Shown piece after piece: positions 201 through 26,477 of a stretch of DNA of 64,000 bases (within the stretch, counting starts at the first letter, position 1; each line of letters starts with the position of its first letter). The position numbers and the translations under genes were made by a program. The notes below the pieces were generated by a model that was not told the origin of the DNA, ran no database searches, and worked only from the letters and a program-made list of their open reading frames with translations. The DNA is from Tubulanus polymorphus. Its lineage: Eukaryota; Animalia; Nemertea. The stretch covers positions 3,062,175 through 3,126,174 of the forward strand of contig NC_134032.1 of NCBI RefSeq assembly GCF_964204645.1, written 5' to 3'.

Positions 201-1335
201 ATGAAAATTCATTGTTCCACAATAAGAACGGTTTACAGACACCAATCCCAGTATATTCACCTTGCAATAAGAAAATACTTCAATGGAAAGAGAAAGCTGC
301 TATTGGATTCCATCGGAAATAAACCACTACTGCCGGGAAGGGATGGTCACTGCGATAGCCCAGGTCATTCAGCGAAGTATTGCTTTTACACAATAATGGA
401 CTTGCGGCAAAATAGAATCCTTACATCAGAATTAGTGCAGGTAAATTCAATCTTCAATTTTGCAGGATTTCCATTATTTTGATTGTCATACGTAGGTTGA
501 TCAATGCAGATGTTTTCCTACGTCGAGTCAGAACATAAGATAACATTGTTATGGTAACTTTGGTATTATTCAGCATTTGCATAGTAACTGGAGAAGCTGA
601 CAAAACGCAAAGGAAATGAAGACATAAAACAATGGATTCAAAATATTAAAGTTCATCTGTACTTTTGTGCCTTGTCGTCAAAGCCTGGAGAATTCAATAA
701 TATTTAGAAGAAATGGCTAGCGTGTGTTGAGCACGTTCAGAATATACACACTAACTGTAGCCACGGACCACTTGAACAAGAGAGAAAATGACTTTTTCCT
801 GGTACGCAATTTCATGTTTCTATAATTGTACAATATGCAGAAATGCTGTAAGAAAAAAAATCAAAGGCATCTAGAATTCAATTGGACTTTTCTCTTATAG
901 GATCTCAAGCTGCTTCTGACTTTGAAGGTATTGCCACCAAGCCGAGGCAGTTAGCACAGATCCGAAACATGTCATCCTATGGTCAGACAAGTGGAGATGA
1001 ATCATTTCATAGTGTTTCAACCATTTTTGTCCGAAGATGATTCATTTTTCTTACACAGGAATGCTCAGTCGGTGAGTATGTTGCATGTTGGTTCAGGGGG
1101 TACAGGGGAAAACTTACCTGTAGATACGCTTCCACTTTAAATTGGCGAAATCATATCGTCCTGGGTTAACATAAAATATTATTTTCCATATTACATGTGG
1201 CTATTCTTCATTACAACAAAAACAGTTCCCGTGTCCAAGCTAAAACAAAAGTGGTCAAAAAAAGTATGCTGTACACTATCCAAAGCACAAGAATGGGCAC
1301 ATTGTGAGAACGTTCATTCAAATATCCAACATCGG
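201..1335 (+). pseudogene. Degenerate, intron-containing Mutator-like DNA transposase relic
   Basis: ORF 201-482 contains GRDGHCDSPGHSAKYCFYTIMD..ELVQ, matching the DGRxDSPGHxAKYxxYTxMD motif of animal Mutator-like transposases. Further broken pieces downstream (TSGDESFHSV ~985-1020; ILHYNKNSSRVQAKT ~1200-1250) carry stops and frameshifts. Confidence 0.55.
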
Positions 1336-1864
1336 TGAAAGTTTGATTACTGTATACATGTACTGTAGGTTTTCATGTTGTATGAATATTTTGTAGTTCA
1401 AATGGGTATGATGCTGATTCCAATGTACAATAAACACATGAAGTTAAATGGTCAAGGACAGTCAACACCAAGATATCTCTCTTCGACCGATGTTGCACCA
1501 TAGAAGATCTGATTCTTTCATCTCGAGGAAAGTGATTCAACACGATCAAACATAACACTGTAATAGGTTTGCAGTTCATTTCATTTAGTCCTTTTTCCTT
1601 TTTAGCCAATTTGGATTTTATTGTAATTGAAACTCTGGAACTGTTAACAAGAGACAAGTAAGAAGTTGAAAAAACACAAGTTATGCTTGATTCTGATATT
1701 CAAAATTAAATTCAAATTCAAATTTATTTTATTATATTATATTTACAAAACATATCATTGGTTCATACGGTAATAAACATTAGGACAGAACGAATATTAT
1801 TATAGAATTTTCAAAAAGGCAATGAATTTCTATAACTAAATGAACATTATTTTTCTAATAACTG

Positions 1865-1945
1865 AGTAATTAGAAGATGGCGTTTTCAGGCCAGAGTACT
1901 AGAGTACTAGACACCACTCATCACCACAAGTAATTTTTTTTTCCT
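1865..1945 (+). repeat. Left terminal inverted repeat of the Polinton
   Basis: agtaattagaagatggcgttttcaggccagagtactagagtactagacaccactcatcaccacaagtaatttttttttcct is the near-perfect reverse complement of 18369-18448 (a few substitutions, one T-run length difference). Confidence 0.95.
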
Positions 1946-1979
1946 ACTCATCACCACAAGTAATTTGTTTTCCTTATAA

Positions 1980-2306
1980 ATGGGAGATAGAAAAGCATTC
2001 TTAGCAACAATAAATAACAGAATAAAACCAGCAAAAAAACAATTTGAAATAAAAAAGTTAGTTGATGTTACAAAAGAAATTGAACATAAAATATTGAAAT
2101 TAGAAAAGATAAAAACTAAATATGGAGAGAAAGTATCAGCTAATTTAAGCTACTGTAATGTTAGTACATCACGAGAATTTAAAGTATTTTTACCCGATAA
2201 ATGGGTTTCATTGAGTATGGAGGAATTGAAAGATTTAGTAGGAATTAAAATAATATATCATGGGAAAAATGAAGACGGTCATCATGATTTAGAAATTGTT
2301 GATTAA
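1980..2306 (+). CDS. Polinton small hypothetical protein (108 aa)
   Basis: Intact ORF with TAAATG start, directly after a tandem pair of the ACTCATCACCACAAGTAATTT motif at the left TIR. Confidence 0.75.
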   Translation: MGDRKAFLATINNRIKPAKKQFEIKKLVDVTKEIEHKILKLEKIKTKYGEKVSANLSYCNVSTSREFKVFLPDKWVSLSMEELKDLVGIKIIYHGKNEDGHHDLEIVD

Positions 2307-2454
2307 ATCTAAAAAAAATTAATAAAAATAATGAATATCTAGAATCCGAAATGACTTATCTGGACAATTTAATTGCTCCTCATAGATAGACAAAAGTAGT
2401 GAGATATTCAATTAATTAAAAAAATTATTTTTTTTTTGCTTTTTTTCTAAAATA

Positions 2455-2809
2455 TTAATCCATTTTTTTTATTGTTAATTTTGGAATTTCAGAAGTACTT
2501 TCATTTTTGATAGCAGTTGGTTTAGAATTATTAATATCATGAATTTTATTTGATTTCTTATACCAATCATACCCAATCAAAATGAATACAATTACAAATC
2601 CAACTGTAAAATATAAATATTTATCAAATATTCTACTATCAGAAGGAGTAGAAATAACAATATTTTCACCATTTTTATTAACATTTTTATTACTTATTTT
2701 TTCTTTTACGGCTTTTTTTATATTCTTGTGATTTAATTCCTAATTGCCGAGACCATTCAATTTGTTTCTGAGTTCTCGGTTTTTTCTTCACTTCTTTCAC
2801 CTCGCTCAT
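2455..2809 (-). pseudogene. Polinton small membrane protein, frameshifted (absent from ORF track)
   Basis: TAAATG start at 2809 (MSEVKEVKKKPRTQKQIEWSRQLGIKSQEYKK). Removing one A from the A7 run at ~2713-2719 continues into AVKEKISNK...YLYFTVGFVIVFILIGYDW (hydrophobic helix)...KKMD* ending at 2455. Confidence 0.65.
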
Positions 2810-3347
2810 TTATTATAGAAATATTTTTACTTTCAATATTTGAAAATGTTATAACTCCAGTTGATAATAATGTCATAAATCCACCTAATTGAAATGATAA
2901 ATATCCAATCCATTTATTTAATTCAGTCATAACTAAATAATCATTTTTTAAATCGGAATATAATCTATTTTCATCTTCAATTGGTAGTATATAATTACAT
3001 AATTTACTATAACCTTTTACTACATTTTCTGATATCGCGTCATTAATTCTAGCTGTTCTCGCGGCTTCATAAATCTTAAATAATCTAATAATTTCATCTG
3101 ATTTCATTATGTCTAATTCATTATAAGTTAAATTTTTACCAACAAAATTTTTACATTTTCCAGATGCTATTAATATTTCTAATTGATGTTTGCAATAAAG
3201 ATAATATTCATAATTATTATTTGTTGTAACATTATTTAAAGCACCATCATCTGGAATTAATTTTGTTTCTGTTATTCCTAAATCATCTAAAGTTTTTTCA
3301 ATTGGAACATCACCATTTTTAGATTTTATTTTCTTTTCACCCACCAT
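2757..3347 (-). CDS. Polinton hypothetical protein (196 aa) with C-terminal hydrophobic segment
   Basis: Intact ORF; TAATTTTTTT..TAAATG start context; WIGYLSFQLGGFMTLLSTGVITF hydrophobic stretch. Confidence 0.8.
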   Translation of the reverse strand: MVGEKKIKSKNGDVPIEKTLDDLGITETKLIPDDGALNNVTTNNNYEYYLYCKHQLEILIASGKCKNFVGKNLTYNELDIMKSDEIIRLFKIYEAARTARINDAISENVVKGYSKLCNYILPIEDENRLYSDLKNDYLVMTELNKWIGYLSFQLGGFMTLLSTGVITFSNIESKNISIINERGERSEEKTENSETN

Positions 3348-3380
3348 TTATATAACAAAAAAATTAATTGTGTGATGTTG

Positions 3381-3735
3381 CAACTAGAATTTAACTAGAA
3401 TGTAACTAGAATTCAACTAGATTAACAAGCTAGTTGAAATATTGTTGTTTTTGTTTATTTCTTGTTAAATCTAGTTGATTTTTTGTTTCAACTATTAACA
3501 ACTAGAATTCAACTAGAATGTAACTAGAATGTAACTAGATTAACAAGCTAGTTGAAATATTGTTGTTTTTGTTTATTTCTTGTTAAATCTAGTTGATTTT
3601 TGTTTCAACTACTAACAACTAGAATTCAACTAGAATTAAAATAGATTAACAAGCTAGTTAAAATATTGTTAAATCTATTTGATTTTTGTTACAACTACCA
3701 ATAACTAGAATTCAACTAGATTAACAAACTAATTG
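3381..3735. repeat. Polinton-internal non-coding tandem array (about three ~120-bp units built from ~11-bp AACTAGAAT subunits)
   Basis: Recurrent caactagaatt/aactagaatgt and caactagattaacaagctagttgaaatattgtt blocks between the 196-aa gene and the ATPase. Confidence 0.85.
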
Positions 3736-3738
3736 AAT

Positions 3739-4347
3739 TTAAATAAATTCATATTTAAATGGGTGTTGTAATCTAAATAGTAATTTTGATCTTTTAATAT
3801 TTTTCAACTTATCCATATATTCATTATGTAAATCATGTGGAATAATATCATTTTCCTCAAGTGCATTTTTCATCGATTTTCTATCTTTATTGTAGAATAA
3901 AACTAGAAATCTAATGTTTTCTCTAAAATCTTTAACAATTGAATTATATTTTTGATTTAAAACCCAAGTTGTTATCCCAAAATGTCTCCCAGAGAAAGCT
4001 AAATAGCATAACTCACTTTCTCTAACTTTTGAATCATGTAGATTAGCACAATCATCTATAATGAATAATGTATTTGATCCTTTATAAATATCAATTGCTA
4101 TTTTTATACAATTATCTAAATTTTCTTTTACTGTTTTAGGATCTAATATAATAAATTTATTATTCCTAGTAATATTTTTATCATAAGTTTGATTAAATTC
4201 ATATGTTGGACAAAATAATACTATATTATCAAAATAGTTTTCATAAACAGTTTCTAATAAATGTAATATAAAATAAGTTTTTCCACAATTTGTTACACCA
4301 GAAATTAACATATTATGAGGCTCAAATATAAATAATTCCTTATTCAT
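3739..4347 (-). CDS. A32-like (FtsK/HerA superfamily) virion DNA-packaging ATPase
   Basis: Walker A ISGVTNCGKT, Walker B LFIIDD, arginine-finger region SGRHFGIT followed by LNQ. Confidence 0.92.
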   Translation of the reverse strand: MNKELFIFEPHNMLISGVTNCGKTYFILHLLETVYENYFDNIVLFCPTYEFNQTYDKNITRNNKFIILDPKTVKENLDNCIKIAIDIYKGSNTLFIIDDCANLHDSKVRESELCYLAFSGRHFGITTWVLNQKYNSIVKDFRENIRFLVLFYNKDRKSMKNALEENDIIPHDLHNEYMDKLKNIKRSKLLFRLQHPFKYEFI

Positions 4348-5475
4348 TTATATATTTTTAATTTTACTTGATAATATCCATTCATTGAATTTATCTGGCC
4401 ATCCAACCCATTTTACTAAAGAATATTTTTTTCTTTTAACAGTTTTTGTTTTTAATACTTTTTCAATTTTATATTCTTGTTCTAGATTTTCAGTAGTTAA
4501 ACTTAATTCTTCTTCGTAAAAATATCCATCAACTTCTTCACCATCTAAATCTTCTAATTTATAGACATATGGTTTTGTTGTTATTACCTTTTTTATTTTA
4601 TATATTTCTCTAGTAAAATTTCGATCGTATCCTTTATCAAATATCTTTTTATACTTAGAAATTCTAACATTTTGACCAACTTTAAATTTAGGTTCACCAA
4701 AATCATCAACAAGAAATGCTCCATATAAATTATTCCAAACAATTTCAGCATTTTCAGATTTTCTAGCATCAATAGGTTTCATTCCAATAGAAGAATGATA
4801 AGAATTATTATATCCTTCTATCAATTTTGGTAAAACATCAATCCATTTAAAAGTATTATTTGCTGTAAAATATTTCCACATTCTTGTTCTTAATGTTCTA
4901 TTAAATCGTTCAACAACTGCTGCTTTTTTATCTGATTTTGTTGAAAAATATTTAATATTATGATTATCTAAGAGTTCATGAACAAGTGAATTATCAAACT
5001 CTTTTCCATCATCAAATTGAATTTTTTCTGGTTTTAGTTTACCACCTGAAAGAAATTTTCTTAAAACATTTGATGTTTGTACAGCATCTTTTCTATAAAG
5101 TGGGAAGCTCCATACATAACGACTAAAAATATCAATTATATTCAATAACCACCAATAATCATCATTATCTTTCTTAACATTTTTCATATCAATTAAATCT
5201 CCTTGCCACTGTTGATCTACATAACTTACCATAGTTTTACGAGTTTTATATTTTCTAACAATTTTTTTAGGTTTTGTATATGTTGGTTGTTCTAACATAA
5301 ATTCATTTATATCTTTATATTTAACTAAATTTTGTGGGATTATCTTATCTAATTTATCTTGTTTTACTTTACGCCATATATTTTTAGTAGAAGAATAAGC
5401 AACCGAACTCTCAGGGTTGTAATATAAATTTCTTAAATATTGTTCTTTAGTATTAGGAGTTTTTTTACCTCCCAT
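4348..5475 (-). CDS. Retroviral-like (rve) DDE integrase with C-terminal chromodomain
   Basis: WQGDLIDM, IDIFSRYVW, IQFDDGKEF and VVERFNRTL catalytic blocks; C-terminal YKIEKVLK..YSLVKWVGWPDKFNEWI chromodomain; ORF intact. Confidence 0.96.
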   Translation of the reverse strand: MGGKKTPNTKEQYLRNLYYNPESSVAYSSTKNIWRKVKQDKLDKIIPQNLVKYKDINEFMLEQPTYTKPKKIVRKYKTRKTMVSYVDQQWQGDLIDMKNVKKDNDDYWWLLNIIDIFSRYVWSFPLYRKDAVQTSNVLRKFLSGGKLKPEKIQFDDGKEFDNSLVHELLDNHNIKYFSTKSDKKAAVVERFNRTLRTRMWKYFTANNTFKWIDVLPKLIEGYNNSYHSSIGMKPIDARKSENAEIVWNNLYGAFLVDDFGEPKFKVGQNVRISKYKKIFDKGYDRNFTREIYKIKKVITTKPYVYKLEDLDGEEVDGYFYEEELSLTTENLEQEYKIEKVLKTKTVKRKKYSLVKWVGWPDKFNEWILSSKIKNI

Positions 5476-5505
5476 TTATATATCCTTAATTTTAACTTTA
5501 TATTT

Positions 5506-6754
5506 CTAATATTGAATACTATCTAATTGTGAATTTACAATATTTAATTGCGCATCAGATATAATATAAATGTGGATTTTAAAATTTTTGATTCCTTTAT
5601 TCTTTTTCATGAATAATTGTATTCCATCTTTAGTGTTCTGTAGTTTTTTTCCAGAACCATGTAATGAATTATCTTCTGTTGTTCTAAAATCTAACTATAA
5701 TGCATATTTATTACCGGTATAATAATCAATTTGATTAATATTACAATTTTCAAATGATTTTACTTTTTCATTCATAAAATGTTTTCTAATTTCTGGCCAT
5801 TGATCAATCATTCTCATTCCTTGACAAAATATTTTATTCGCTATTCCTTCGATAGTTATTTCTACTTTTGTTATTTCAGGATTATAATAATTGTCAACAT
5901 TTATTGCACCATTAGTATACGTTCCAATGGTAAAAAATATTAATATACCTTTAATAGATCTTCTAGGAAAGTTAATATTCTCATTTATTATTTCATCATT
6001 TGCATTAATAGTTACAGTTTTAAATTTATCAATATAATCATATAATAATGAAAACCCTTGATTGTATTGAGTTTGAATTGTGCTAGCAATATTTTCATTA
6101 GTTATTGTGTTATATTCTAAACATATATTCGATAATTTATAACTCATATCTTTAACAACGCTAGATAATACAATTTCATTTACAGGAGCAAATGTTATCT
6201 CAAATATAATATCTTCTTGAATTGCGTATTTATATAAAGGGGCATTATTATTTATCAATTCAAAATCTAATGGAATTTTATATTTGCTTCCATAAATCTT
6301 TTTAATCAAATTATCTACGTCATTATTTACTATTGCGTTATTGGCTTCAGATCTTAATTTATTTTTGGTTTTCTGATTGGATGCCTTGAAATATCATATT
6401 ATTTCTATTTTCTTTAGTTAACCATAAATCTTTATAATGCATAAATAAATTATAATCATCTAATGAGAAAACTGTTTCTGGACCAATCTTTATTGTTAAC
6501 TTTTTAATCAAATATCTTCCAACATTATCAACGACATAATTATTATTATTACCGATTACTTTTATATCGGCTGATAAATAAATACTATTTGGAACATAAA
6601 AAGTATTTTGTGTTAATCTAGGAATTCTAACGTATAAAGTTTCATCGGGATTAATATTTGAAGGGTTATGAGTAATTATATGATGTGATCTTTCTGCTTT
6701 AATAGCATTAGATATTCTAGAAATCTTAGAAGGACTTATATAACTCCCACTCAT
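5506..6754 (-). pseudogene. Major capsid protein (double jelly-roll type), disrupted
   Basis: ORFs 6359-6754 and 5695-6309 join by removing one A at ~6362-6366 (QSENQ-NKLRSEANN..LIKKIYG). In-frame TAG at 5695-5697 sits where Trp is expected (KYAL*LDFRTTEDNSLHGSG); reading continues to TAG at 5506. About 415 codons in total; motifs (THNPS, YKLSNICLEY, FPRRSIKGIL) recalled from Polinton MCPs. Confidence 0.75.
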
Positions 6755-6774
6755 TTATTTAACAAAAAAATTAA

Positions 6775-8211
6775 TCATTTATTTTTTATCATGTTTACTA
6801 ACCCAAAAATAATAGCACTTACAACTGTAATTAAAAATAAAATAATATGTTCAGCAGCAAAGTTAAGAATATTACCTGCAGATTTTAAAACAAAACCAAC
6901 AATTGATGCAATAACTCCTGGCAATGCTGCAGCAGATTTTTTAGATAGTTCCCATAAATATTTTGCTAATTTCTTTAAACCATCTTTAACTTTATCTTGT
7001 ATAGAATTATTGCCTGGAGGTTTATCTGGTTTATTAGGAGTGGGAGTAGGAGTAGATTTTAAAGCATTTGATATAGCTAAACCTATTGTTGTAAATAACA
7101 TAGTAACAGCTGTTAGAATTGAAAGAATTGTTATTCCTTCTAATTTAAATAATAACTTTATCCTATCTTTTAATGATATTTCAGAATTTGGTTTAATCAA
7201 CAAATCTTTAAAAATAACTTTTAATCTATTAATATTATAATCATATGATTTTAACAATAATTTAATTTCTTCTTTCTGTACTTCTAAATTATCTTTTAAA
7301 TTACTAATTTCTTTTTCTAAACGTAATTCTTTTTGCCTATATTCTATTTCATCAATTACTTGATGATCTAAATCAGACTTTAATTGTTCTATTTCTTTAT
7401 TTTTATCAGTTAATTCTTTTTCCAAATACGTAATTTTTTGATCTCTTATACTTTTATTATGCGCAATTTTATCAGATGCAAGTCTTATATTAATAATTTC
7501 TCTAATTGCTTTATCAGAAAATATATCTAAATCTTCTAATTATTGATCTGTTGCATCAAGTAATCCATTCGGTAAAAGTTTTTCAATTGGAACTTTATTT
7601 GATTTAAGTTTACTAGTTTTGGAAGTTTTATTCTGTTCAGAAGTTTTTTCTGTTTCTGATTTCTTTTTGATTATTTCAAATAATTCATTAATTCTTTGTT
7701 TAAATACATCTATATTATCATCTATTTCTTTTTGTGTAACATCAGTTATTTCATTACTATTACTTATTATTTTAATTCTATCTGGTTTTAATTTTTCTAA
7801 AGTTGATTCTGATAATATTTTATTTTTATTATTTTTATAAGTGATATCAATATAATAATCACCTTTCAAACGATAATAACATTTACCATTATCTAAAAAT
7901 TTTAATTGATCTGCTAAAAGTCCAACGTCTTCATCATTTATGTTAAGTTTAGATTTTTCAATTAAATCTTCTAATTTAGGTATTTTGTTTAAATTATCTA
8001 AATCTTGTTTTACTAAATCTGGGTCTAAATTTTCAGGATTTAATTGTGATTCAGCATTTTTAATATAATCAGGCATATTTAAATTATTGTTATATTCTGG
8101 TTCATTACCATCATTAAAACTTGTTTCATCAAAATCAGGTGGTTGTTCATCAGTTATACCAGGTTCATTAAAAGGATCCATTCCAATATCTTCTACACCT
8201 TCTACATCCAT
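6775..8211 (-). pseudogene. Acidic/coiled-coil protein with C-terminal membrane segments, interrupted by one nonsense codon
   Basis: ORFs 7540-8211 and 6775-7425 are in the same frame, separated only by TAA at 7540-7542 (DATDQ*LEDLDIFSDK...). The C-terminus has hydrophobic helices flanking a PTPTPNKPDKPP linker. Confidence 0.75.
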
Positions 8212-8228
8212 TTATATAATAAAAAAAA

Positions 8229-9644
8229 TTAAAATTTAAAATATAATATTCCTCCGATTACAATTCCTATACAAGTTATAGCTAATTTAGTATTTTCATG
8301 GGATTTATTATCATCATTTAGTTTAATTACATCATGTTGAATATCACCGTGTGGGTGCCATATGGCACCATTATCAGTTCTATTATTTTCTGTAGTATTG
8401 TAATCTTTTATTTTAGAATCATTATTTAATTTAATATTCTTAGTTTTAGTTTCTGTTGATTGAATGTGTTTTTAATTTTTTTCACCTTCGATTAATTTTG
8501 GAGCAGTAATAATCTTTTTATTTATATCATTTAACCCAAATGAATTATTTATTGTTGCAGTTTTAATTAGATTATTATAACCAATTATATTTCCCATCTT
8601 TAATACTAAATCATTAGAAATAATTAATAGATTAGGGCCTATACAATAATTAAGTCTTACATGAGATTTATCTAAATAATTTTGATATCTTATAATGTTT
8701 TCTGGAATCGATCTATTTTTATCATTATGAATTGAATCTTCAAATAAAACTTTAAATTGTTTTTGTGTATCGAATGATGTATTCAAATTTCCAATTATCG
8801 GTGATCTTGTTTCAACTTGTGATCCTAGAATACAAATCAAATAAGTTCTAATAGATTGATTTATTCTTTCTATACCTGATTTAGTAAAACCTTCACTATT
8901 TTCTAAAATAAAATAAACCCAACCATTATTGTTTTCTTGTTTTAAATTATCATAAAATTTTGGTAATTTATTGAAATTTAATGTTTCTAAATCCTTTGTT
9001 TCTATTTGACCATAACCTAATTTTTTATTATTGATATTATAAAAACTATTAGATGGTATGGGAAGTGCACAATATTCTGCAATCTTTCTAGGGCAAGGAA
9101 GTGATCTTATTGTTCCAATTTTTGTTCTAAAATCAGAATTATTTATATCTATATTAAATTCATTGCAAATTTTATAAAACTTAGATAGATTAATATTATT
9201 ATCTAATTCTTTAAAATATCTAGATCCTGGTAAAGCACACTCTAATTCATTTAATATTATTCTGATTTGAAAGTATGTATGAAATCTAAATAAACTTTGA
9301 ATTAGTTTATATTTAGAATTATTCAAATGATTATTCCAACTAATTCCACATCCTGTTGTTGCACAATAAACAGCAAAATTTAATTGGTTCTGCCAATACT
9401 TCATATTAGATTTTAATAACCATTGTTTTTCATCTTTCAATTTTTTAAAATTAATTAAATATACATGAAATATATTTTCCATCTTTGCATTAAAATTATT
9501 AGTTTCAGTAACATAAATTTCTAAATCAATTAATGAATTTAAAACTTCATTTCTATATGTAATATCTTTATTAAAATCTATTGCTGGAATATTATATTTA
9601 ATTGATTTATTATATCGGAAAGTTTTTGGAAAACTATCTACCAT
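8229..9644 (-). pseudogene. Polinton conserved hypothetical protein with C-terminal membrane anchor, one premature stop
   Basis: 390-aa ORF (YWQNQLNFAVYCATTGCGIS) stops at TAA 8472-8474, but the same frame stays open to ...HENTKLAITCIGIVIGGILYFKF* at 8229. Confidence 0.7.
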
Positions 9645-9660
9645 TTATATAACTAAAAAA

Positions 9661-10093
9661 TTAATAATTTATTAATTCTTTTAATAATTTATCTTGTTCT
9701 TCAACTGTTATATGACCATTTAAACTTATTATATAATCTAGTGTGTTCTTTAATTTATTAATTTCTTTTATATTAGATTTTATTTTTTCTTTATTACTTT
9801 TTATATTTAATTTTGAACTTATACCAGTTAAAACACTTGAACTTAATCCTAACACACCAATTGATATAGCTAGGTGTTAATGGACTGAATATTGCTAGAA
9901 ATGTTATTACAGAACTAATTGTAACCGAACCACTTATAATCAAATAATATATAATTTTACTTTTTAAATATTTTTTCTTTTTTATCTTTAAGTCACTTTC
10001 AAATTCTAATATTTGTTTTTCTAGATATATTTTTAATTTAGTTTTATTTATATCATGAGGAATAATATCAATACTATCAACTTTATCTTCCAT
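9661..10093 (-). pseudogene. Polinton small membrane protein, frameshifted
   Basis: Overlapping ORFs 9794-10093 (TAAATG start, hydrophobic IIYYLIISGSVTISSVITFLAIF) and 9661-9855 read as one gene with a frameshift near 9870. Confidence 0.65.
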
Positions 10094-10112
10094 TTATTTA
10101 GAATAAAAATTA

Positions 10113-10535
10113 CTAATTAGTAAACTTATAAGCAACAAATATAACAATAACAGTTCCACCTAAAATCCATATTATTTCATATTTCTGTTGTTCTTTACTT
10201 GGGGTATAATTATCTGATAATTTAGGTTTGTATAGATGTAATTTTTCTTTATTGGTTACTGCGTTATATAAACTCATTGCATCATCAACTGATTGAAAAT
10301 CTCTATGTGAAATCTTCTGATCATATAATTCTTTATTGATGTAATCCATATAGTTTTGTCTCTTTTCTCTATATTCTTCTGCAGCTTTATTGTATTTCTC
10401 TAACGATAAGTTATGTCTTCTTTGTTCTCCTAATGAACTATTTTTATCAATATGTTTAAATAAATATCCACCACCAGTAAATGCTAAAGCGTTAACAATT
10501 GCTGATCCTATAATAGTTATAATTGCAGAAGCCAT
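10113..10535 (-). CDS. Polinton small protein (140 aa) with hydrophobic N- and C-termini
   Basis: Intact ORF; MASAIITIIGSAIVNALAFTGGGYLF and IIWILGGTVIVIFVAYKF; motif-preceded start. Confidence 0.85.
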   Translation of the reverse strand: MASAIITIIGSAIVNALAFTGGGYLFKHIDKNSSLGEQRRHNLSLEKYNKAAEEYREKRQNYMDYINKELYDQKISHRDFQSVDDAMSLYNAVTNKEKLHLYKPKLSDNYTPSKEQQKYEIIWILGGTVIVIFVAYKFTN

Positions 10536-10560
10536 TTATTTAGCAAAAAAAATTATGTAT

Positions 10561-10782
10561 TTATATAGGAGGAATATATTTTTGTTTTTCCAAATAATCA
10601 ATAGTTAAATTAGATAAAGTAACTGCTAATGTTAACTTTAAAATATCATTTATATCAAATCTATCAACATTAACACTTCCCATTTTGAATACTTTTTTTA
10701 ATACCATTGAATAACCAACAGTTCCAACTGATAGTAATGCGCCATTATATAATCCAGTTATTATCCACTTATTATCACTCAT
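10561..10782 (-). CDS. Polinton small hydrophobic protein (73 aa)
   Basis: Intact ORF, TAATTTTTTTGATAAATAAATG start context. Confidence 0.8.
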   Translation of the reverse strand: MSDNKWIITGLYNGALLSVGTVGYSMVLKKVFKMGSVNVDRFDINDILKLTLAVTLSNLTIDYLEKQKYIPPI

Positions 10783-11130
10783 TTATTTATCAAAAAAATT
10801 ACTATCATCAAAATATTTAGTTAACTTAGTTTCAACATTTATTTTATTACTAGTTTCATTTGTATATATTTCAATTATTATTTTCTTAATATCATCGATG
10901 ATAAAATCTTCATCTAATTCATAAAATCTTAAAGATTCTCTAATTAAATTAGTAATCTTTTCTACATTTAAAGTTTCTTTATCAATTGTTGTTTCATACT
11001 CAAATGTTGTTTCATTAGAAAATACAATATTTTTGATATGTGTTATTACATCATTAATGTTAAATTTCATTTCTTTCTCACGTTTAAAATCAAATCCAAA
11101 ACATATACTCGGTCCAACAGTTATATTCAT
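10783..11130 (-). CDS. Polinton hypothetical protein (115 aa)
   Basis: Intact ORF, TAATTTTTTTGATATATAAATG start; its stop abuts the next ATG. Confidence 0.75.
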   Translation of the reverse strand: MNITVGPSICFGFDFKREKEMKFNINDVITHIKNIVFSNETTFEYETTIDKETLNVEKITNLIRESLRFYELDEDFIIDDIKKIIIEIYTNETSNKINVETKLTKYFDDSNFFDK

Positions 11131-11146
11131 TTATATATCAAAAAAA

Positions 11147-11946
11147 TTACTCTCTACATCTTATAACTAATTCATATATCACAGGAAAGTTGTTCAAATC
11201 AATTAAATAACCATTATGATTTCTTATTTCTAATTTAAAATTGTTAAATTGAGGAATACAAGGTTTAAAATCACATTCAGCTAAATTATAATTTATTTGC
11301 GTTCCAAATTGTTTAACGTTCTTCGATGGTAAAATATTTAATATACTAGAATTACATGTTGTATCTTTAGTTGCTTCAAATGTTTTTGTAGGATCGATTA
11401 AATTGCAATAAATATAAAAGTGTGTAAAAGGTATTATATTTGAGTTACCGTGTATGTTTACACCAATAAAATCATTTGGAGTAATTCCTAACAGTTTAGC
11501 AAAAGGTTTTTTTACCATGTAATTATGTCTTCTTGTCATCAATGGATTAGATTTAACAAGTTTAATAAGTTCATCATCAAACTTTATTTTAATTTTATTA
11601 GAGCTCTCACTTTTTATGAATTTAATATTAAATTTGGAATTACCATTACCTAATCTAATCCGAGCTTTTCTATTAATTTCTTGCGCTAATGTTTCTAAAT
11701 TATATAATCCTGGTGTAAGCATAAGTTGAATCCATTTTTTTCAAGTTTATCAAAAATAAGAAGGCTTCTATGTTCATCAGTTTTATCTGATATATTATAA
11801 AATGAGTTACATAAACTTATATTTACTAATTTTAAATCTACACAATTCTTGAATTCTCTATCTAATTGAACTAATAAATTATGTGATTTATAATTTGTAA
11901 GTCTTCTTGAATCAACAAATATTCTGTATTCTTTTAATTCTACCAT
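11147..11946 (-). pseudogene. Minor capsid (penton-like, single jelly-roll) protein, frameshifted
   Basis: ORFs 11695-11946 and 11147-11722 overlap and join near 11720-11745. C-terminal FYIYCNLID..SILNILP..FKLEIRNHNGYLIDLNNFPVIYELVI is typical of Polinton penton proteins. Confidence 0.65.
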
Positions 11947-11968
11947 TATTTATAACATAAAAAAATTA

Positions 11969-11997
11969 CACTCATCACCACAAGTAATTTTTTTCCC
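11969..11997 (+). promoter_or_regulatory. Internal copy of the TIR-derived motif CACTCATCACCACAAGTAATTTTTTTCC in a divergent intergenic region
   Basis: Near-identical to sequence within both TIRs; lies 6 nt upstream of the ATG at 12004. The penton gene starts divergently at 11946. Confidence 0.75.
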
Positions 11998-12003
11998 TAA
12001 TTA

Positions 12004-13305
12004 ATGGACGAGAAGATAGCATGTGAAATTTGTGGTGAACTTCTAAGAAAAAGTAATATGGCTCGACATATGAAAAAACATAATGAAAATTATAAACCCC
12101 CTAAACTAAACTGTCCAAAATGTAATAAATTATTCTCAAGAAATTATGTTAAAAAACATTCAGAGAAGTGTAGAATTAATAACGCAACAGCTAATGTTGA
12201 TAGTAATTCTGCTGAAGTTGAACCTGAAGTTATTTGGAAAAGACCTTTTTTATTTTATGACAAGAATAATGTAAAGAATAATTTCTGCGAGCCTTGTAGA
12301 ATGAAATACATCCCTGATAATAAAGAAGATTGGGAGAATCATCAATTTCGTAAAGCACATATAGATAAAATTTCTAATAAATTTGAAACTGAATTCAATG
12401 AAAGAAAAAATAATTTATTAGAAAAAATAAAATATGAGAAAACGTTACCAGATAATGAAGAAACAGTTGAAAAGTTAGAAAAACAATATAATGAATTAAC
12501 AAGAAAAACATATTATTGTAAATATTGTAAATTGATTATTACAACAAGTAATTCAAATCTACATAATAGAACAATAAAACATAAAGAAAACGTAAGAAAA
12601 TACCAAGAGCTTAATGAAGATCTATTACCAATAAATTATAAACGAAAATGTCCACAATGTAGTTATGCGACCTTAAGACAAGAAGGTACTGTGTTATTTT
12701 GTGTTGATTGTGGATGGCAAAAGAATTTATGGGATGAAGAAAAAACTAGAAATTTTCTTATAGATCCAAAATTAAATTATCTTGATGAAATTTTTAAAAT
12801 ATGTTCTATAGAAGATCATACACCAGAATATATGCAATGGCTTGAAAAAATGAAAATAATAGAAAATAAAAATGGTGGAATAACTAAAAAAGATATTATA
12901 AAAACAATTATTCCACCAACATTTAACACAAAACAAAAGAAAATGTATTTATATTTATTATTTAACGATTATTATAAAAAACCTAAATTAACAGAAGAAG
13001 ATATGAAAAATATAAAAAAAATATTTAAACAAATATTAATGTATCATTTGGAAAATAGAATAACAGATTCAATAAATTATGAATTCTTTTTAAATAAGAT
13101 TGTAAATTATTTAAACCTAGATATTATAATTCCATTTGATGAATTAACAAACAAAAAGAAACAAAGAGAGCGAGATGAAATGTGGAACAAGATAGAACTT
13201 TATTCAAATGAGAAAAATGGAATGGAAGAAGAACCTGAACAATTAAATGAAAATGAAGAAGCTAATAGTGATTTCGAGTATGATGATATTGATTTTATGT
13301 TTTAA
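12004..13305 (+). CDS. Multi-zinc-finger protein with putative VLTF3 (poxvirus A2)-like late transcription factor domain
   Basis: N-terminal C2H2-type fingers (CEIC..HMKKH, CPKC, CEPC, CKYC..HNRTIKH). Zinc ribbon CPQC-x12-CVDCG is followed by a helical domain ending SINYEFFLNKIVNYLNLD..KKQRERDEMWNKI, resembling the VLTF3 C-terminus. The ORF is well supported; the VLTF3 call is by eye. Confidence 0.65.
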   Translation: MDEKIACEICGELLRKSNMARHMKKHNENYKPPKLNCPKCNKLFSRNYVKKHSEKCRINNATANVDSNSAEVEPEVIWKRPFLFYDKNNVKNNFCEPCRMKYIPDNKEDWENHQFRKAHIDKISNKFETEFNERKNNLLEKIKYEKTLPDNEETVEKLEKQYNELTRKTYYCKYCKLIITTSNSNLHNRTIKHKENVRKYQELNEDLLPINYKRKCPQCSYATLRQEGTVLFCVDCGWQKNLWDEEKTRNFLIDPKLNYLDEIFKICSIEDHTPEYMQWLEKMKIIENKNGGITKKDIIKTIIPPTFNTKQKKMYLYLLFNDYYKKPKLTEEDMKNIKKIFKQILMYHLENRITDSINYEFFLNKIVNYLNLDIIIPFDELTNKKKQRERDEMWNKIELYSNEKNGMEEEPEQLNENEEANSDFEYDDIDFMF

Positions 13306-16300
13306 TGGCCATAAGGTAATGTTTTTATACCATCATCTGAAATATGCCTTTTATTATCAAATGGATTTAAACTAGTTTTTTCAACTTCATTAATGTACAT
13401 CTCGTGATCTTCTGATCTTAAACAATTCATTTTGTGTTTCATTACAATTGAGTTATATAAACATTTTATATAATCTTGAAATTCTATATGTTTATCAACC
13501 ACATGTTTTGTTATTCCTTTTAACTTTTTAGCTTCATGATCTTTTGTTCTGTAACTATACATTTTACTTCTTATCCCAACAAATTCAATCATTTCATCAC
13601 CTCCTAATTCATCTTTAAACTTACCAGGAATCTTTTTATTATCATTACTAAACAATTCATGATCTTTGGGGTAATTGCTAAAGTCGAAATAATGTTTCAA
13701 TGTTTTTAAGTCTTTTGTTATATCATTTGTCTTGATTTTTAGTATGTAGGCGTCAGTATTTTTTTGGATTAATGGGAACCCAGAATTGAATGTTCCATCA
13801 TCTGTTGATAAATCATAAACATAGTCAGTTGGGTTATATATTTCAAATAAATCCTTAACTTCTTCTGTTAACTCATTTTCTACATGGCTTAAATTAAAAC
13901 AATTTGGTTTAGATTTATTCAATCCAATATTCATATTGAAGCCTAATGAATTACATAATATATTTAATCCTGATATAGCAACTTTTCCTTTTTGAGCTAA
14001 AGATATTGTTTTGCGGTTTTTGAAACTTTTAGTACCATCTGCTGCATAGAATCCAATGAAGAACCATTTTCTTAAATTATTTTTTGCATTTAATACATAA
14101 TCTGGTACTATCTTTTCTTTTGTTGAAGTATTACTTTTCACTATTGCATGAATATAGAATTCATCATTATATTCTATAGCAAAATCTTTAGGATTATTCA
14201 CAAGTATTCTATAAACTGCTGATGATTTCATAACATCTATGATTTTGAATGTTTTATTTGGATAAACTTCTTCACAGAATTTCTTAATTCTTTCTAATAA
14301 TTTTAAGTCTTGATTGCATAAATACCAACAATATTTAGTTCCACTAACATAATTATACACACCTGCTGAACCATCACCCATGAAAAATCCTTTGATAAAA
14401 TATTCTTTTTCTTCCAATGTTTCTCGTTCTATATTATAAATATTATCAATTATTTCATCAAATGACATATGATTCATTCTTGGGAAAAATCTTTTATGTA
14501 ATAATTCATCTCCAATTTTTATATCAGTTGGTTTTATTTCATCACCATTTCGTTTAATTAAACTATGATCTTCTGTAACATCTACAAATCCTAATTTAGT
14601 TCTAACTCTATAGATTTTCTTATTTGTTTTATGTCTAATAATATTATTTAATTTTTTCCATCCATTTCTTGTCCAAACATCCATTAATCCATTTATTTGT
14701 ATTAATTCTTTTTCACCATATGAAATATAACATTCATTTTGTTTTGGAATTATTTCTGAAATTCTTCTTACCAATATTTTATTATTACATTTTAATAATA
14801 TTGGGGTGTCAGCTGTTACAGAATCGAAGTATAGAATTTCTATGTGTTTTTCCCCAAAAAGTGGTTGTAATACATTATAATAGAATTCATACATTAATAA
14901 TTTTGATACTTCTAAAACGGTTGAACCTATGAAAATGGGTTTATTAAATTTCATTGATGTTCTTTTTAATTTTACCGCGGTCAAATAATCCTCAAATCTT
15001 TTATTTTGTAAATGTCTGGGGCTTGATTGTAAATGCCTTAATCTTTTATAATCATTTACTAACTCAATGTCGTTTCTATTACGAATATTCTCACAAGTTT
15101 TTCCATAAAAACTATTGTTCATTAATTTGAAGAAATCTTTTTCGAAATCAGTTTTTGATATGGTTCTCTGTTGAGTATTGAAATCTATATATTTTTCTAA
15201 CCACTTCGATTGATTAAATTCAATATATCTATGTACTTTCTTTAATTTCATTCCTTGTTTTAGATAAAATTTTAACATTCTATAATGAACAATATAATTA
15301 TATTTATTATTTTGAGTAAGTATTAATTTTTCTGTAAAAACATGATCTTTCGGTTTTATTTTCTTCTGGTATTCACTTAAATAACTATCATCTACAGTTA
15401 AATGTTCTGGGCAATAAGGTAAGTTTCTTGTTTTAAACTTTATATTTTCAGGGTATTCTAAATCAACTACAAAGAAATAACCAATTGGTGCTTCATCTTT
15501 TAAACTCGCAATTGCGTTTTCCCAATCAGTTTTATCATCATTTTCAACTTCTGTTAATATAAAATTTTTATATGGTTGAGGTTGCATCATTGCCCAACCA
15601 TATAAATTATTGGCATCAATATATAATAATTTATATTCATCATTTGCTTTAAAATACCTATCTCCCATAACACCACTAATTCCACCTCTAATTGATTTTT
15701 CAAATAATAAAACCATGTCTGGTTCTTTTAATAAATCTAATTCTACATTTGTATATTTTAAACCACATTGCCAGGTTAAACCAGGACTAGAGTAGCAATA
15801 ACAAGGATCAACATTAAAATGGTTTAGATTAACTTCTCTAAACTTTTCAAATATGTCAGCCAATATCATAACATCTGATTTTAAATATAAATCAACTAAT
15901 TCACCATGATTTTTCATCTTAAAATGGTTCCAAATATTTAATGTTCTATCAAAAACTTCGTCTTTCACATACTCCTCTTTTAATTTATCATAAAATTGAT
16001 CTTTTAATAATTACATTAAAATCATCATGTGTTTTATAAAATGAATAAGGAATTGCGCCTTTATATCTCAATAATTTAAAATCTTGGTCATTTGGATAAT
16101 AATATCGAGTTATAACAAAATCATTATCAACTAAACTTTTTGATAAATTATCTAATGAACTTGCTAGAAATCTATAAGAATCTAAAAATCTAATGCAACC
16201 AAATTGAAATGAAATATAATTTTCAGTTGTTTTAGCTAATAGTTTAAAATCATATTTTCTTACATTTGCTTCATTCATAGCATTATATTCTTCTATTTCT

Positions 16301-18363
16301 TGATTAATTGCGCCCAATTTTCCCGATAATTGTTTTATAAATAGATGGGTATCATATCCTGATAAATTATGAAATAATATTGGTACGAAATTTACTTTTT
16401 TAGCTTGTAAATTGCAATCTTCATGAGCAGCTCCACGATATTTTGAATTTAAATGATCATGATCTCTAACTCTTTTATCAAATGAATAAAAACGTTTTTC
16501 ACAATAACAACAATGAGTTGCATAATTAAAATCAATTTCATCTTCTTTTGTCATAACTATTCTTTTATTTTTGTTTAATAATTTTGCAAAATCACTTTCT
16601 AATTCAATAATTTTATCACAAAAATCATTAACTACATTTTCACCTCTAAAAGAAATATATTGACTTTCATATAATTCGGGATAATTTGATTTTATATAAA
16701 TTCCATAAGCAGCAGCTCTTTGATGAACTTTTTTAATTGTATTTATAATTGGTGGGTCTTGTATTGCGTCTTCATTTAATTCATTTCCTTTATCCATTGA
16801 TTTTAATAATTGCTTTTTGTTATATATTTCTTTTCTATCTTGATCAGTTAATTCTTTATTCAACGATTCAAAATCCCCATAAATTACAAATGGAACAATA
16901 TTTTTAAATTTATGATTAGTAAATTTCAATTTATAATCTTTTTCTGTTGGCATTATTAATTTACAAAAATCTTTATTATCACATAATTCTTTATGTTTTA
17001 GTAATGTATTCTCAGTTCTAAATTTAGATAAACATTTTCTACATAGATAAATTTTATGGCTGTTAAAATCACTTTCTGTTCTAAAGAATAAATCAATTTG
17101 TTTTAACCACATATAATGTTCATTTTCATCTTTTTTGTAATATAACAAATCTATAGCATTTTCATCATCATAATATTCTGTTAAATATAAAGCTTCCAAT
17201 GTATAATCTTTAATATTTTCACCTTTTGTCTTTGGTAATTGCATTAATTCGAATACATTTATTTTTAAATTATTAACTTTTTCTATTTTAGGAATCATTT
17301 TTATAGTTACTGGATATTGATCAATTTTATATAATGTTTCATATTTCCGGTAATCTGTTATTCTATAAACATGTTCTTCTGTTGGATGTAAGCAACTAAT
17401 AATTGACCATAGAAAACATTTATTATCTTCATTTTGAATATTTATTACTGCTTTTGTTATAAACGGTAATTTGATATAACTTGATGCTTTCATATCTTTT
17501 TCTGTTATAAAGTTTGAATCATTTTTAAACATTTTATTACTTTTTGATGTTTTATTTCTTTTTGTATTATAAACATTTAAATCTAAATATATAATTTCAT
17601 ACAATGTTAAGCCAGAACCCTCAAAATATCTTTCTTCAATATGACGTTTAAATTCATTTAATATTTTTTCTAACTTCTCTTTTATTTGTGTTTTTGAAAT
17701 TATTTCTTCAGAGTGTGTTTGAATATTATAATTCATTTTTTCTTCTGACTTTATAAAACTTACTTTCCCAGAGATACTAATTTTTGGATATTCAACATCT
17801 GTTATCAAATCTAGTAATTTTTCTATTATTTCATTAAATTTACTATAATCTTCTATTGTTGTACCTTTAAAGAATCTAAATATAATAGCTGCAGGACCAA
17901 TTTTACTATGTAATGTTTCTAAGATTTCAATTGTATCTTTGATTTCTAGTGAATCAATATAATTTCTAACATTTTCCATGTAAGGTTTATTTGAAATGGA
18001 TTTAGTTTTTGAAGTTGGTTTTTTTACTTTTTGAGTTTTATCGTCAAAATAATCTTTTCTTAAAACATTATTACTCAAATTTTGGTGGTGTTTTTGTGAT
18101 TCGAGATGTCTATTATAATTCCTTTTTACTATAAATTCATTACAAACTTCACATTTTATTTCATCCACATTCATATTTTCTAATCGTTCTTTTCTTTCAT
18201 TGGAATTTTCTGGAGTTTCAAAATCTATAACATTTTTTATATGATTTGAAGATTTTTCATGTTTAGATTTATTAGATTTATCGATGTATTTTTTACAATA
18301 TTGACAATAATATTGATTTTTATTGACATTATTGTTTTCTAGTTGGTGTTCATTCTCCCCCAT
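13302..18363 (-). pseudogene. polB: Protein-primed family B DNA polymerase (pPolB) with N-terminal Zn fingers, inserted endonuclease VII-like domain and an intein; one frameshift
   Basis: Exo I VIYGDFES, Exo II FHNLSGYDTH, RFLDSYRFL, Exo III YLKSDVMILADIFE, motif A YIDANNLYGWAM, motif B KLMNNSFYGKT, motif C YFD/TDA split by the intein, KIPGKFKDE, SKMYS, KLKGI. ORFs 15988-18363 and 13302-15968 are one gene: the downstream frame extends upstream as KDQFYDKLKEEYVKDEVF (the 15968 start is a GTG), placing the frameshift at ~16005-16015. Confidence 0.93.
13758..14822 (-). mobile_element. Intein (355 aa) with LAGLIDADG homing endonuclease in pPolB motif C
   Basis: Block A SVTADTPILL, block B VDVTEDHSL (TxxH), LAGLIDADG blocks FIKGFFMGDGS and FFIGFYAADGT, block F DYVYDLSTDDGTF, block G LIQKN followed by +1 Thr. 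Excision restores YFDTDA. Confidence 0.95.
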
Positions 18364-18368
18364 TTATT

Positions 18369-18448
18369 AGGAAAAAAAATTACTTGTGGTGATGAGTGGT
18401 GTCTCGTACTCTCGTACTCTGATCTGAAAACGCCATCTTCTAATTACT
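18369..18448 (-). repeat. Right terminal inverted repeat of the Polinton
   Basis: aggaaaaaaaattacttgtggtgatgagtggtgtctcgtactctcgtactctgatctgaaaacgccatcttctaattact mirrors 1865-1945. Confidence 0.95.

Positions 18449-21092: not shown

Positions 21093-26477
<5,385 letters not shown>

What the first reader, a model, noticed from the sequence alone, without database searches (positions are those of the whole stretch)
1865..18448. Endogenous Polinton with three independent signatures of life inside a giant/pox-like virus factory (candidate animal virophage-like system)
Seen: one TIR-bounded element carries a TAAATG start context (usually after a T-run) at nearly all genes, a zinc-finger/VLTF3-like gene and a giant-virus-style PolB intein; it has no introns and no RNA polymerase gene. 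Established: TAAAT(G) after a T/A tract is the poxvirus late promoter read by the viral multisubunit RNA polymerase; VLTF3 is a core Nucleocytoviricota gene; virophages such as mavirus share promoter motifs with their helper virus; intein homing needs both genomes in one compartment. Inference: this Polinton lineage is not simply transcribed by host Pol II but is a helper-dependent satellite of a cytoplasmic large DNA virus of an invertebrate. It would sit integrated until co-infection, possibly acting as a parasite of, or defence against, the helper.
Basis: partly seen in the sequence, partly recalled or inferred. Interest (0 to 1): 0.95.

Follow-up and report, generated by a model that had tools for sequence, protein, structure and literature searches.

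The report
Animal Polinton with poxvirus late promoters
A virus-like jumping element present in many copies in an animal genome starts almost all of its genes with the sequence that poxviruses use as their late promoter and carries a poxvirus-like transcription-factor gene but no recognisable RNA polymerase, so it likely lives as a parasite of a poxvirus-type virus not yet seen in this animal.

Summary
Window 1865-18448 is a decayed copy of a multi-copy Polinton (terminal inverted repeats, pPolB, rve integrase, A32 ATPase, probable capsid genes; no protease or RNA polymerase found). 13 of 15 gene starts are exactly TAAATG behind a fixed-distance T-run (background 36/628). Relatives keep it at 27 of 29 ORF starts, against 6/47 in AT-rich giant-virus contigs. 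ORF 12004 is VLTF3-like (Pfam cut-off passed); its nearest canonical relative is an entomopoxvirus-type A2L protein, and a related element carries the same gene with the same start. The intein is real but not a giant-virus signature: three of its four nearest full-length non-Polinton relatives sit in T4-like phage polymerases. VLTF3 in Polintons and poxvirus-associated PLVs are already published; the promoter evidence was not found in print. Best reading (about 0.5): transcription by a co-infecting poxvirus-type helper. Main rival (0.25): own VLTF3 plus host Pol II. No helper, transcript or defence role was shown. The scan noted a similar element in another genome (e1-8580207).

The parts
1865..1946 (+). 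Left terminal inverted repeat; inner end holds CTCATCACCACAAG and the T-run
   Evidence: 73/77 nt match to the right end; element positions
1980..2306 (+). 108-aa protein, predicted OB-fold, likely ssDNA-binding protein; TAAATG start behind a second copy of the TIR-internal element
   Evidence: model pLDDT 63; weak Foldseek matches, many to OB-fold SSB/PriB/RPA, none at E<=0.001; 72% to L001 homologue
2455..2809 (-). Small basic protein gene, broken; TAAATG start at 2809
   Evidence: similar N-terminal motif in L001, L004, L006 ORFs by eye
2757..3347 (-). 196-aa conserved protein of unknown function; TAAATG start
   Evidence: 54-70% identity to L001/L004/L006 ORFs; no Pfam hit above cut-off
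3739..4347 (-). A32-like packaging ATPase; TAAATG start whose TAA is the integrase stop
   Evidence: PF04665 E 8e-13
4348..5475 (-). rve integrase with C-terminal chromodomain; TAAATG start
   Evidence: PF00665 E 5e-10; PF00385 below cut-off
5506..6754 (-). Probable major capsid protein gene, broken (frameshift and premature stop); TAAATG start
   Evidence: weak Capsid_N hit E 0.0013, 6 of 35 homologues likewise; 415-aa single ORF in L001, 75-78% identical
6775..8211 (-). Coiled-coil/hydrophobic protein gene, interrupted by a stop; TAAATG start
   Evidence: both parts match one 485-aa ORF in L001
8472..9644 (-). 390-aa conserved protein of unknown function; TAAATG start
   Evidence: 69% to L001; no Pfam hit; Atlas gave no credible family
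9663..11130 (-). Four small conserved genes (starts 10093, 10535, 10782, 11130), each with TAAATG; the 10093 gene is broken
11147..11946 (-). Minor-capsid-like gene, broken; variant start TAAATAATG
   Evidence: one 254-aa ORF in L001; the capsid label is recalled resemblance, no profile hit
11970..12003 (+). Internal copy of the TIR-derived element (CTCATCACCACAAG + T-run) in front of the VLTF3-like gene
   Evidence: (family D11)
12004..13305 (+). 433-aa VLTF3-like protein: N-terminal zinc fingers, zinc ribbon, VLTF3 helical domain, acidic tail; frame open
   Evidence: PF04947 27.6 bits; Atlas 0.95, 27 of 30 hits VLTF3; weak Foldseek top two hits poxvirus VLTF3
13302..18363 (-). [quoted passage not shown]
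   Evidence: both pieces align collinearly to P0127, which passes PF03175
13758..14822 (-). 355-aa intein at the motif C site (Ser start, Lys-Asn end, Thr +1) with two LAGLIDADG-type motifs
18367..18448 (-). Right terminal inverted repeat; its inner end is the pPolB start motif

Best explanation
This is a decayed copy of a multi-copy Polinton in an animal genome in which 13 of 15 genes start at the poxvirus late-promoter sequence TAAATG behind a fixed-distance T-run, and which likely borrows the RNA polymerase of a co-infecting poxvirus-type virus to express them. Shown: the anatomy, the motif, its conservation, the VLTF3-like gene, the multi-copy family. Inferred steps: (1) integrated copies would stay largely silent in uninfected cells; (2) on infection an excised copy would reach the cytoplasmic factory (how is unexplained); (3) the helper's post-replicative machinery would start each mRNA in the AAA of TAAAT and add a 5' poly(A) leader by slippage, which would explain the zero-length leaders and the T at -3; (4) the element's VLTF3-like protein would bias that machinery to its own promoters; (5) pPolB, ATPase and capsid proteins would make particles and the integrase would seed new copies. 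The intein spreads from Polinton to Polinton by homing and is not part of this mechanism.
For: Motif statistics. The spacing fits the published vaccinia late consensus, TAAAT(G) overlapping the start codon with a conserved T 10 nt upstream among other Ts (PMC11980589 passages); here T at that position in 13/14 and 19/27 in relatives. Relatives with 75-81% identical ATPase have TAAATG at 27 of 29 ORF starts of 80 aa or more; controls: AT-rich giant-virus MAG loci 6/47, other AT-rich viral loci 9/88, an entomopoxvirus-type contig 7/19. Genes found only in relatives (dNK in L001, HNH-like in L004) carry the motif too. L001 carries the VLTF3-like gene with a TAAATG start. Of 4 hits among 1.84 billion representatives, the only canonical VLTF3 is P0356 (226 aa, A2L zinc ribbon; E 7e-5), 63% identical to a gene on a 232-kb, 17.7% GC viral contig with MSV199, NAD ligase and AP-endonuclease/pol-beta genes. 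AATAAA is not depleted in coding strands (65 vs 55.9 expected; L001 51 vs 52.4; L004 27 vs 28.4) and gaps between genes are 0-25 nt; AT-rich genes of yeast cytoplasmic elements are fragmented by nuclear polyadenylation (PMC6211774 passage). ASFV late genes use a different initiator, TATA (PMC7163114 passages).
Against: Coral polintoviruses, a set that includes VLTF3 carriers, are transcribed in Stylophora with no helper reported (PMC11131425 passages). The window motif matrix scores the 24 starts of the entomopoxvirus-type contig low (best 4.2, most negative), so that virus type does not share the upstream T-run. The poxvirus link of the VLTF3-like gene rests on 28% identity and no tree. The AATAAA test has no Pol II-transcribed control. 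TTTTTNT depletion is unspecific, since T and A runs are depleted on both strands. The intein does not point to a poxvirus or giant virus. How a nuclear provirus meets a cytoplasmic polymerase is unexplained. All relatives with DNA context are close (six loci, two nearly identical).
Confidence: 0.5

Rival explanations
1. Helper-independent: the element's own VLTF3-like protein, with added zinc fingers and an acidic tail, recruits host TBP and Pol II to the motif in the nucleus; gene and motif were captured from a poxvirus and repurposed.
For: The VLTF3-like frame is open and co-conserved with the motif. VLTF3 occurs in small viruses such as 35-45 kb mriyaviruses and some PLVs (bioRxiv 2026.06.19.733378 passages); chloroviruses keep it without an RNA polymerase (recalled). 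Coral polintoviruses are expressed. A germline family of many copies is easier to build without co-infection.
Against: The TATA-like part abuts the ATG, too close for a Pol II TATA box (established knowledge; about 24 bp spacing cited in PMC7163114). T at -3 is a poor scanning context (established knowledge). About 5 AATAAA per kb remain in coding strands and VLTF3-like and pPolB genes overlap tail to tail.
Confidence: 0.25
2. Relic: the lineage once depended on a poxvirus and the motif is a leftover; present copies spread by other means.
For: This copy is decayed; no helper is known; the family is amplified in the genome.
Against: The motif is kept across elements 19-25% diverged in ATPase and in different gene orders, and lineage-specific genes carry it, which implies recent selection.
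Confidence: 0.09
3. Helper-dependent, but on a non-pox member of Nucleocytoviricota (giant, irido- or asfar-like virus) with a convergent late promoter.
For: Most inteins related to this one sit in RNA-primed PolBs, some grouping with a mimivirid polymerase; relatives carry dNK and HNH-like genes common in such viruses (distribution recalled).
Against: TAAATG at only 13 of 72 starts in 14 giant-virus MAG loci, none with the T-run, although these loci were selected for one motif match; ASFV uses TATA; nearest canonical VLTF3 is A2L-type.
Confidence: 0.09
4. The motif is not a promoter: it is AT bias, stop-start coupling or a splice acceptor.
For: The element is 77% AT; in 2 of the 13 TAAATG starts the TAA is the in-frame stop of the gene before.
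Against: First-ATG control 36/433; AT-rich viral controls 10-13%; first genes behind the TIRs carry it with no upstream gene; AG within 12 nt of the ATG in only 2 of 13; fixed spacing of the T-run.
Confidence: 0.07

Closest known systems
Maverick/Polintons of animals (Polintoviricetes; probably group 2)
   Same: TIRs, pPolB, rve integrase, A32 ATPase, probable capsid genes, multi-copy integration; VLTF3 in a subgroup is published (PMC11131425 section 8).
   Different: No protease found; poxvirus-type start motif at nearly every gene, not found in print; full intein in pPolB motif C. Group 2 placement is inferred from the missing protease, not from a tree.
Entomopoxvirus-associated PLVs (Barth et al. 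2024, PMC11296320)
   Same: Small pPolB or helicase viruses proposed to parasitise poxviruses of invertebrates.
   Different: Those were found in occlusion bodies, have divergent capsids and lack rve or use a tyrosine recombinase; the main text has 0 hits for motif, TAAAT, upstream, VLTF or transcription. Here the evidence is promoters in an integrated, rve-bearing family, with no helper in hand.
Mavirus/EMALEs and Tetraselmis PLVs (integrated virophages woken by a giant virus)
   Same: Integrated element, no RNA polymerase, helper-type late promoter before its genes; only EMALEs with CroV-like late promoters are reactivated (10.1101/2025.10.09.676808 passage).
   Different: Protist hosts, giant-virus helpers, other motif; reactivation and protection are shown there and untested here.
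Yeast cytoplasmic virus-like elements pGKL1/2 (PMC6211774)
   Same: AT-rich pPolB elements with a TAAAN initiator giving 5' poly(A) leaders.
   Different: They encode their own RNA polymerase and capping enzyme, have no capsid or integrase, and use an early-type upstream element.
Motif C inteins of viral family B polymerases
   Same: Same D|T site, Ser start, LAGLIDADG domain; 30-40% identity.
   Different: Here in a protein-primed polymerase in an animal genome; Krupovic et al. 2024 (PMC11071308) only suggest intein invasions of Polinton pPolBs.

Membership tests
Maverick/Polinton | Terminal inverted repeats | tested here: met
   73/77 nt, AG...CT
Maverick/Polinton | 6-bp target-site duplication | tested here: not met
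   flanks differ at this copy; left flank is high-copy, right flank low-copy, which suggests later rearrangement; other copies not readable
Maverick/Polinton | Protein-primed PolB | tested here: met
   no direct Pfam hit; 32-45% identical and collinear with P0127, PF03175 66.5 bits
Maverick/Polinton | rve integrase | tested here: met
   PF00665 39.9 bits, cut-off 32.6
Maverick/Polinton | A32-like ATPase | tested here: met
   PF04665 48.8 bits
Maverick/Polinton | Double jelly-roll major and single jelly-roll minor capsid proteins | tested here: inconclusive
   Capsid_N below cut-off; no PDB sequence match; not folded
Group 1 Maverick/Polinton and classical virophages (Lavidaviridae) | Cysteine maturation protease | tested here: not met
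   no protease family among 18 ORFs; none evident in frames of 90 aa or more
Classical virophages (Lavidaviridae) | Virophage-type capsid protein | not tested
   no reference profile used
Functional virophage | Replication depends on a helper virus | not testable with these tools
   needs infection data
Functional virophage | Helper-type late promoter before its genes, no own RNA polymerase | tested here: met
   sequence match only, helper unknown
Poxvirus late promoter | TAAAT(G) over the start codon with T about 10 nt upstream | tested here: met
   13/15 exact; T at -13 in 13/14
Poxvirus late promoter | Initiation in AAA with non-templated 5' poly(A) | not testable with these tools
   no RNA reads laid
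VLTF3 (A2L) | PF04947 domain preceded by a zinc ribbon | tested here: met
Intein | In-frame insert at a conserved site with splicing residues; empty alleles exist | tested here: met
   intein-less P0127 in the same 90% cluster as intein-bearing P0002/P0124/P0129; one X1 contig lacks exactly 1065 nt here. Splicing itself untested
Giant-virus-derived intein | Nested among giant-virus PolB inteins to the exclusion of others | tested here: inconclusive
   sister group mixes three T4-like phage and one mimivirid-like polymerase; quick tree, midpoint root

The most novel reading that the evidence does not exclude
A widespread lineage of germline-integrated animal Polintons are provirophages of undiscovered invertebrate poxviruses: every gene is wired as a poxvirus late gene, a captured VLTF3 steers the helper polymerase, and waking on infection cuts helper yield, an inherited virus-against-virus defence in animals. 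The promoter would be a sequence tag predicting which Polintons need a helper, and which hosts hide a poxvirus.
Probability: 0.22. Interest if true: 0.93.

Novelty: new variant of a known kind. Interest (0 to 1): 0.72.

Why it matters
Whether animal Polintons are autonomous or helper-dependent is an open question (stated in PMC5499653), and no Polinton life cycle is established. A 25-nt motif at nearly every gene makes the question testable with a reporter or with transcript 5' ends, without needing the virus. It also predicts an unknown poxvirus in an invertebrate and offers a way to sort thousands of Polintons into helper-dependent and host-transcribed kinds. The intein is a rare case in an animal nuclear genome (inteins are listed for bacteria, archaea and unicellular eukaryotes in the abstract start of PMC5874633).

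Tried and rejected
No RNA holder listed for the element: no evidence either way. A second laying of reads on possible RNA runs returned no result, so expression is open. IMG/VR scans with ATPase, capsid, pPolB and P0008 queries gave no loci; GTDB scans likewise; so motif conservation was not tested below about 75% protein identity. Word-index search with the VLTF3 region found nothing. Motif scan of IMG/VR gave about 180 single matches and no contig with the motif at most genes: no helper candidate. Contig depths of X1/X2 looked enriched over flanks but are sums over fragments, not used. TTTTTNT depletion rejected as a poxvirus early-terminator sign. No convincing 3' hairpins in 10 gene ends (no shuffle control). 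No Rfam match in 1-22000. Splice-acceptor and stop-start readings rejected. ORF390 stayed unassigned. The VLTF3 model was poor (pLDDT 55), so its fold matches are weak support only. VIA fold searches did not run. Phage collection gave two weak intein matches, 27-28%.
Full report
ANATOMY. Window 1865-18448 is an AT-rich island (21-26% GC per kb) in a repeat-rich animal genome (caspase-domain exon at 21093-22262; minisatellites; phylum not determined). Its ends are inverted repeats matching at 73 of 77 nt; there is no target-site duplication. It encodes an A32 ATPase and an rve integrase, a pPolB (32-45% identical to P0127, which passes PF03175), a probable major capsid protein (weak Capsid_N hits), a minor-capsid-like gene (label recalled), a predicted OB-fold protein, a VLTF3-like gene and several unassigned ORFs. 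None of 18 ORFs hit a protease, RNA polymerase or capping family. At least six genes are broken in this copy, among them capsid and polymerase; five of the six are single ORFs in L001, which holds no polymerase gene, and full-length polymerases exist among protein relatives. Raw DNA reads of run X6 cover the element at 178-1057x against 29x on the right flank, 412 reads run off the right end into mixed flanks (agreement 0.38), and most reads are 90-99% alike. So it is one decayed member of a family of at least several and probably many more copies; the flank may itself be repeated.

THE MOTIF. Of 14 curated starts 12 are TAAATG; background is 36 of 628 other ATGs and 36 of 433 first ATGs after a stop. 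A fifteenth gene adds one. Upstream lies a T-run at fixed distance: T at -14 in 14/14, at -13 in 13/14. The whole pattern occurs 9 times in the window, always at an element start (0.03 expected). A matrix trained on 13 starts ranks those 13 first among all ATGs in 64 kb (circular, shows only that the host part lacks the motif). In six related metagenome loci (ATPase 75-81% identical) 28 of all 36 ORFs of 60 aa or more start TAAATG, the misses being internal, truncated or antisense ORFs, and 27 of 29 ORFs of 80 aa or more. L004 and L005 are nearly the same element. Controls: 6 of 47 starts in 10 AT-rich giant-virus MAG loci, 9 of 88 in 13 other AT-rich viral loci, 7 of 19 in an entomopoxvirus-type contig (the first two sets were picked by one motif match, which was excluded from the count where it lay at a start). 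The same mechanical count for the window gives 11 of 18, because broken genes add internal ATGs. Published vaccinia late promoters have TAAAT(G) over the start codon and a conserved T 10 nt upstream among other Ts (PMC11980589, passages); TAAATG is kept in salmon gill poxvirus (PMC4542343, passages); slippage on it makes 5' poly(A) leaders (PMC6211774, passages); ASFV late genes use TATA (PMC7163114, passages). Only 2 of 13 TAAs are an upstream gene's stop and 2 of 13 starts have AG nearby, so coupling and splicing do not explain it. A longer element, CTCATCACCACAAG, precedes only the OB-fold, VLTF3-like and pPolB genes: possibly a second, earlier promoter class (inference).

FIT WITH HOST POL II. 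Gaps between genes are 0-25 nt, filled by the motif; coding strands hold about 5 AATAAA per kb, not fewer than synonymous shuffles (65 vs 55.9; 51 vs 52.4; 27 vs 28.4). This fits poorly with nuclear processing, by analogy with yeast cytoplasmic elements, but I had no Pol II control. Two unchecked notes of this scan (e1-9971598, e1-7884181) describe other Mavericks with spliceosomal introns, so Polintons may differ in this respect.

VLTF3. The C-terminal part passes PF04947; the Atlas puts 27 of 30 hits in that family; a poor model's top two viral matches are cowpox and entomopoxvirus VLTF3 (E 0.05, 0.09). Among 1.84 billion representatives there were 4 hits: three look like element proteins, and P0356 is a 226-aa A2L-type VLTF3, 63% identical to a gene on contig L127 (232 kb; 17.7% GC over the 20.7 kb read; MSV199, NAD ligase, AP endonuclease/pol beta), an entomopoxvirus-type gene set by my recall. 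L001 carries the start of the VLTF3-like gene with TAAATG. VLTF3 in polintoviruses is already described (PMC11131425, section 8; its source, Krupovic and Koonin 2016, not read).

INTEIN. 355 aa at the motif C site, both LAGLIDADG-type motifs present. 159 proteins matched, 120 were listed; 6 of the 120 have Polinton-type exteins. A quick tree of the window intein and 59 of the top 70 hits (11 dropped as partial or missed by the extraction pattern, among them P0006 and P0045) gives one Polinton clade (SH-aLRT 90) within a set of 11 rows (96) that also holds P0005, P0008, P0009, P0019 and one long branch. P0005/8/9 are T4-like phage polymerases (best PDB match RB69-type; phrog_262 520-547 bits against at most 246 for 34 others); P0019 groups with a protein named Edafosvirus. 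Most other exteins are unnamed, so 'giant virus' is an inference for them. Filled and empty alleles coexist in close Polintons, as expected for homing among Polintons. The intein therefore does not show a shared factory.

MECHANISM AND ODDS. Best: transcription by a poxvirus-type helper (0.5). Rivals: own VLTF3 with host Pol II (0.25), relic (0.09), non-pox helper (0.09), not a promoter (0.07). Against the best reading: no helper or transcript seen; coral polintoviruses are expressed without a reported helper; the entomopoxvirus-type contig lacks the T-run; the route from nucleus to factory is unexplained. A defence role has no evidence here.

WHAT IS KNOWN. Poxvirus-associated PLVs are described, without promoter analysis in the main text (PMC11296320, passages). 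Promoter-matched reactivation is known for mavirus-like elements (10.1101/2025.10.09.676808, passage). Searches for polinton with entomopoxvirus and promoter (4 papers), with poxvirus and TAAAT (2 papers; one seen only as listing), with motif terms (13 papers, 10 listed), with VLTF3 (59, 30 listed) and with intein (18, 15 listed) showed no report of this motif or of a full motif C intein in animal Polintons; I read passages of 15 papers, no supplements, and subscription papers are not covered. Also seen as passages: PMC8502044, PMC12220804, PMC11071308, PMC5499653, bioRxiv 2023.08.22.554363, 2024.03.23.586382, 2026.06.19.733378 (section 5 whole), 2026.10.13.758929 (abstract, passage). The scan noted a similar element in another genome (e1-8580207, unchecked; no sequence look-alike to this family), which is not independent evidence but suggests the pattern recurs.

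VERDICT. Observation confirmed, interpretation partly supported. New variant of a known kind; interest 0.72.

Noticed in passing
window 11970-18448: The VLTF3-like and pPolB genes lie tail to tail between inverted copies of the TIR-internal element, and family contigs have loose ends at 11947 and reads at 1946: the replication cassette may be a swappable module.
   Followed up: partly
window 2400-11950 versus L001:125-10343: The structural gene block is inverted relative to the OB-fold gene compared with L001; L004 has yet another order.
   Followed up: partly
L001:10340-10981 (-): A relative carries a deoxynucleoside kinase gene (PF01712, 110 bits) with the same start motif.
   Followed up: partly
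L004:1296-1811 (-): A relative carries an HNH-like nuclease gene (weak Pfam hit) with the same start motif.
   Followed up: no
window 3381-3737: Three to five imperfect direct repeats (about 36-103 nt units) between the ATPase and the next gene; the only long non-coding stretch inside the element.
   Followed up: no
window 1309-1864 and 18449-19200: Left flank is a high-copy repeat, right flank low-copy, and no target-site duplication: this copy may be a recombinant of two insertions or an assembly join.
   Followed up: partly
window 15988-18363: pPolB N-terminal part has U1-type zinc fingers and a weak endonuclease VII-like segment, also present in relatives.
   Followed up: no
P0052, P0058, P0059: The same intein family sits in a green-algal Pol delta and in type II topoisomerases, at D|TDG-type sites in the latter.
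   Followed up: no
window 21093-22262 (+): Host exon with a caspase domain start behind a long N-terminal region of unassigned fold.
   Followed up: no
window 201-1100: Fragmented ORF that looks like a DNA-transposase remnant (recalled resemblance).
   Followed up: no
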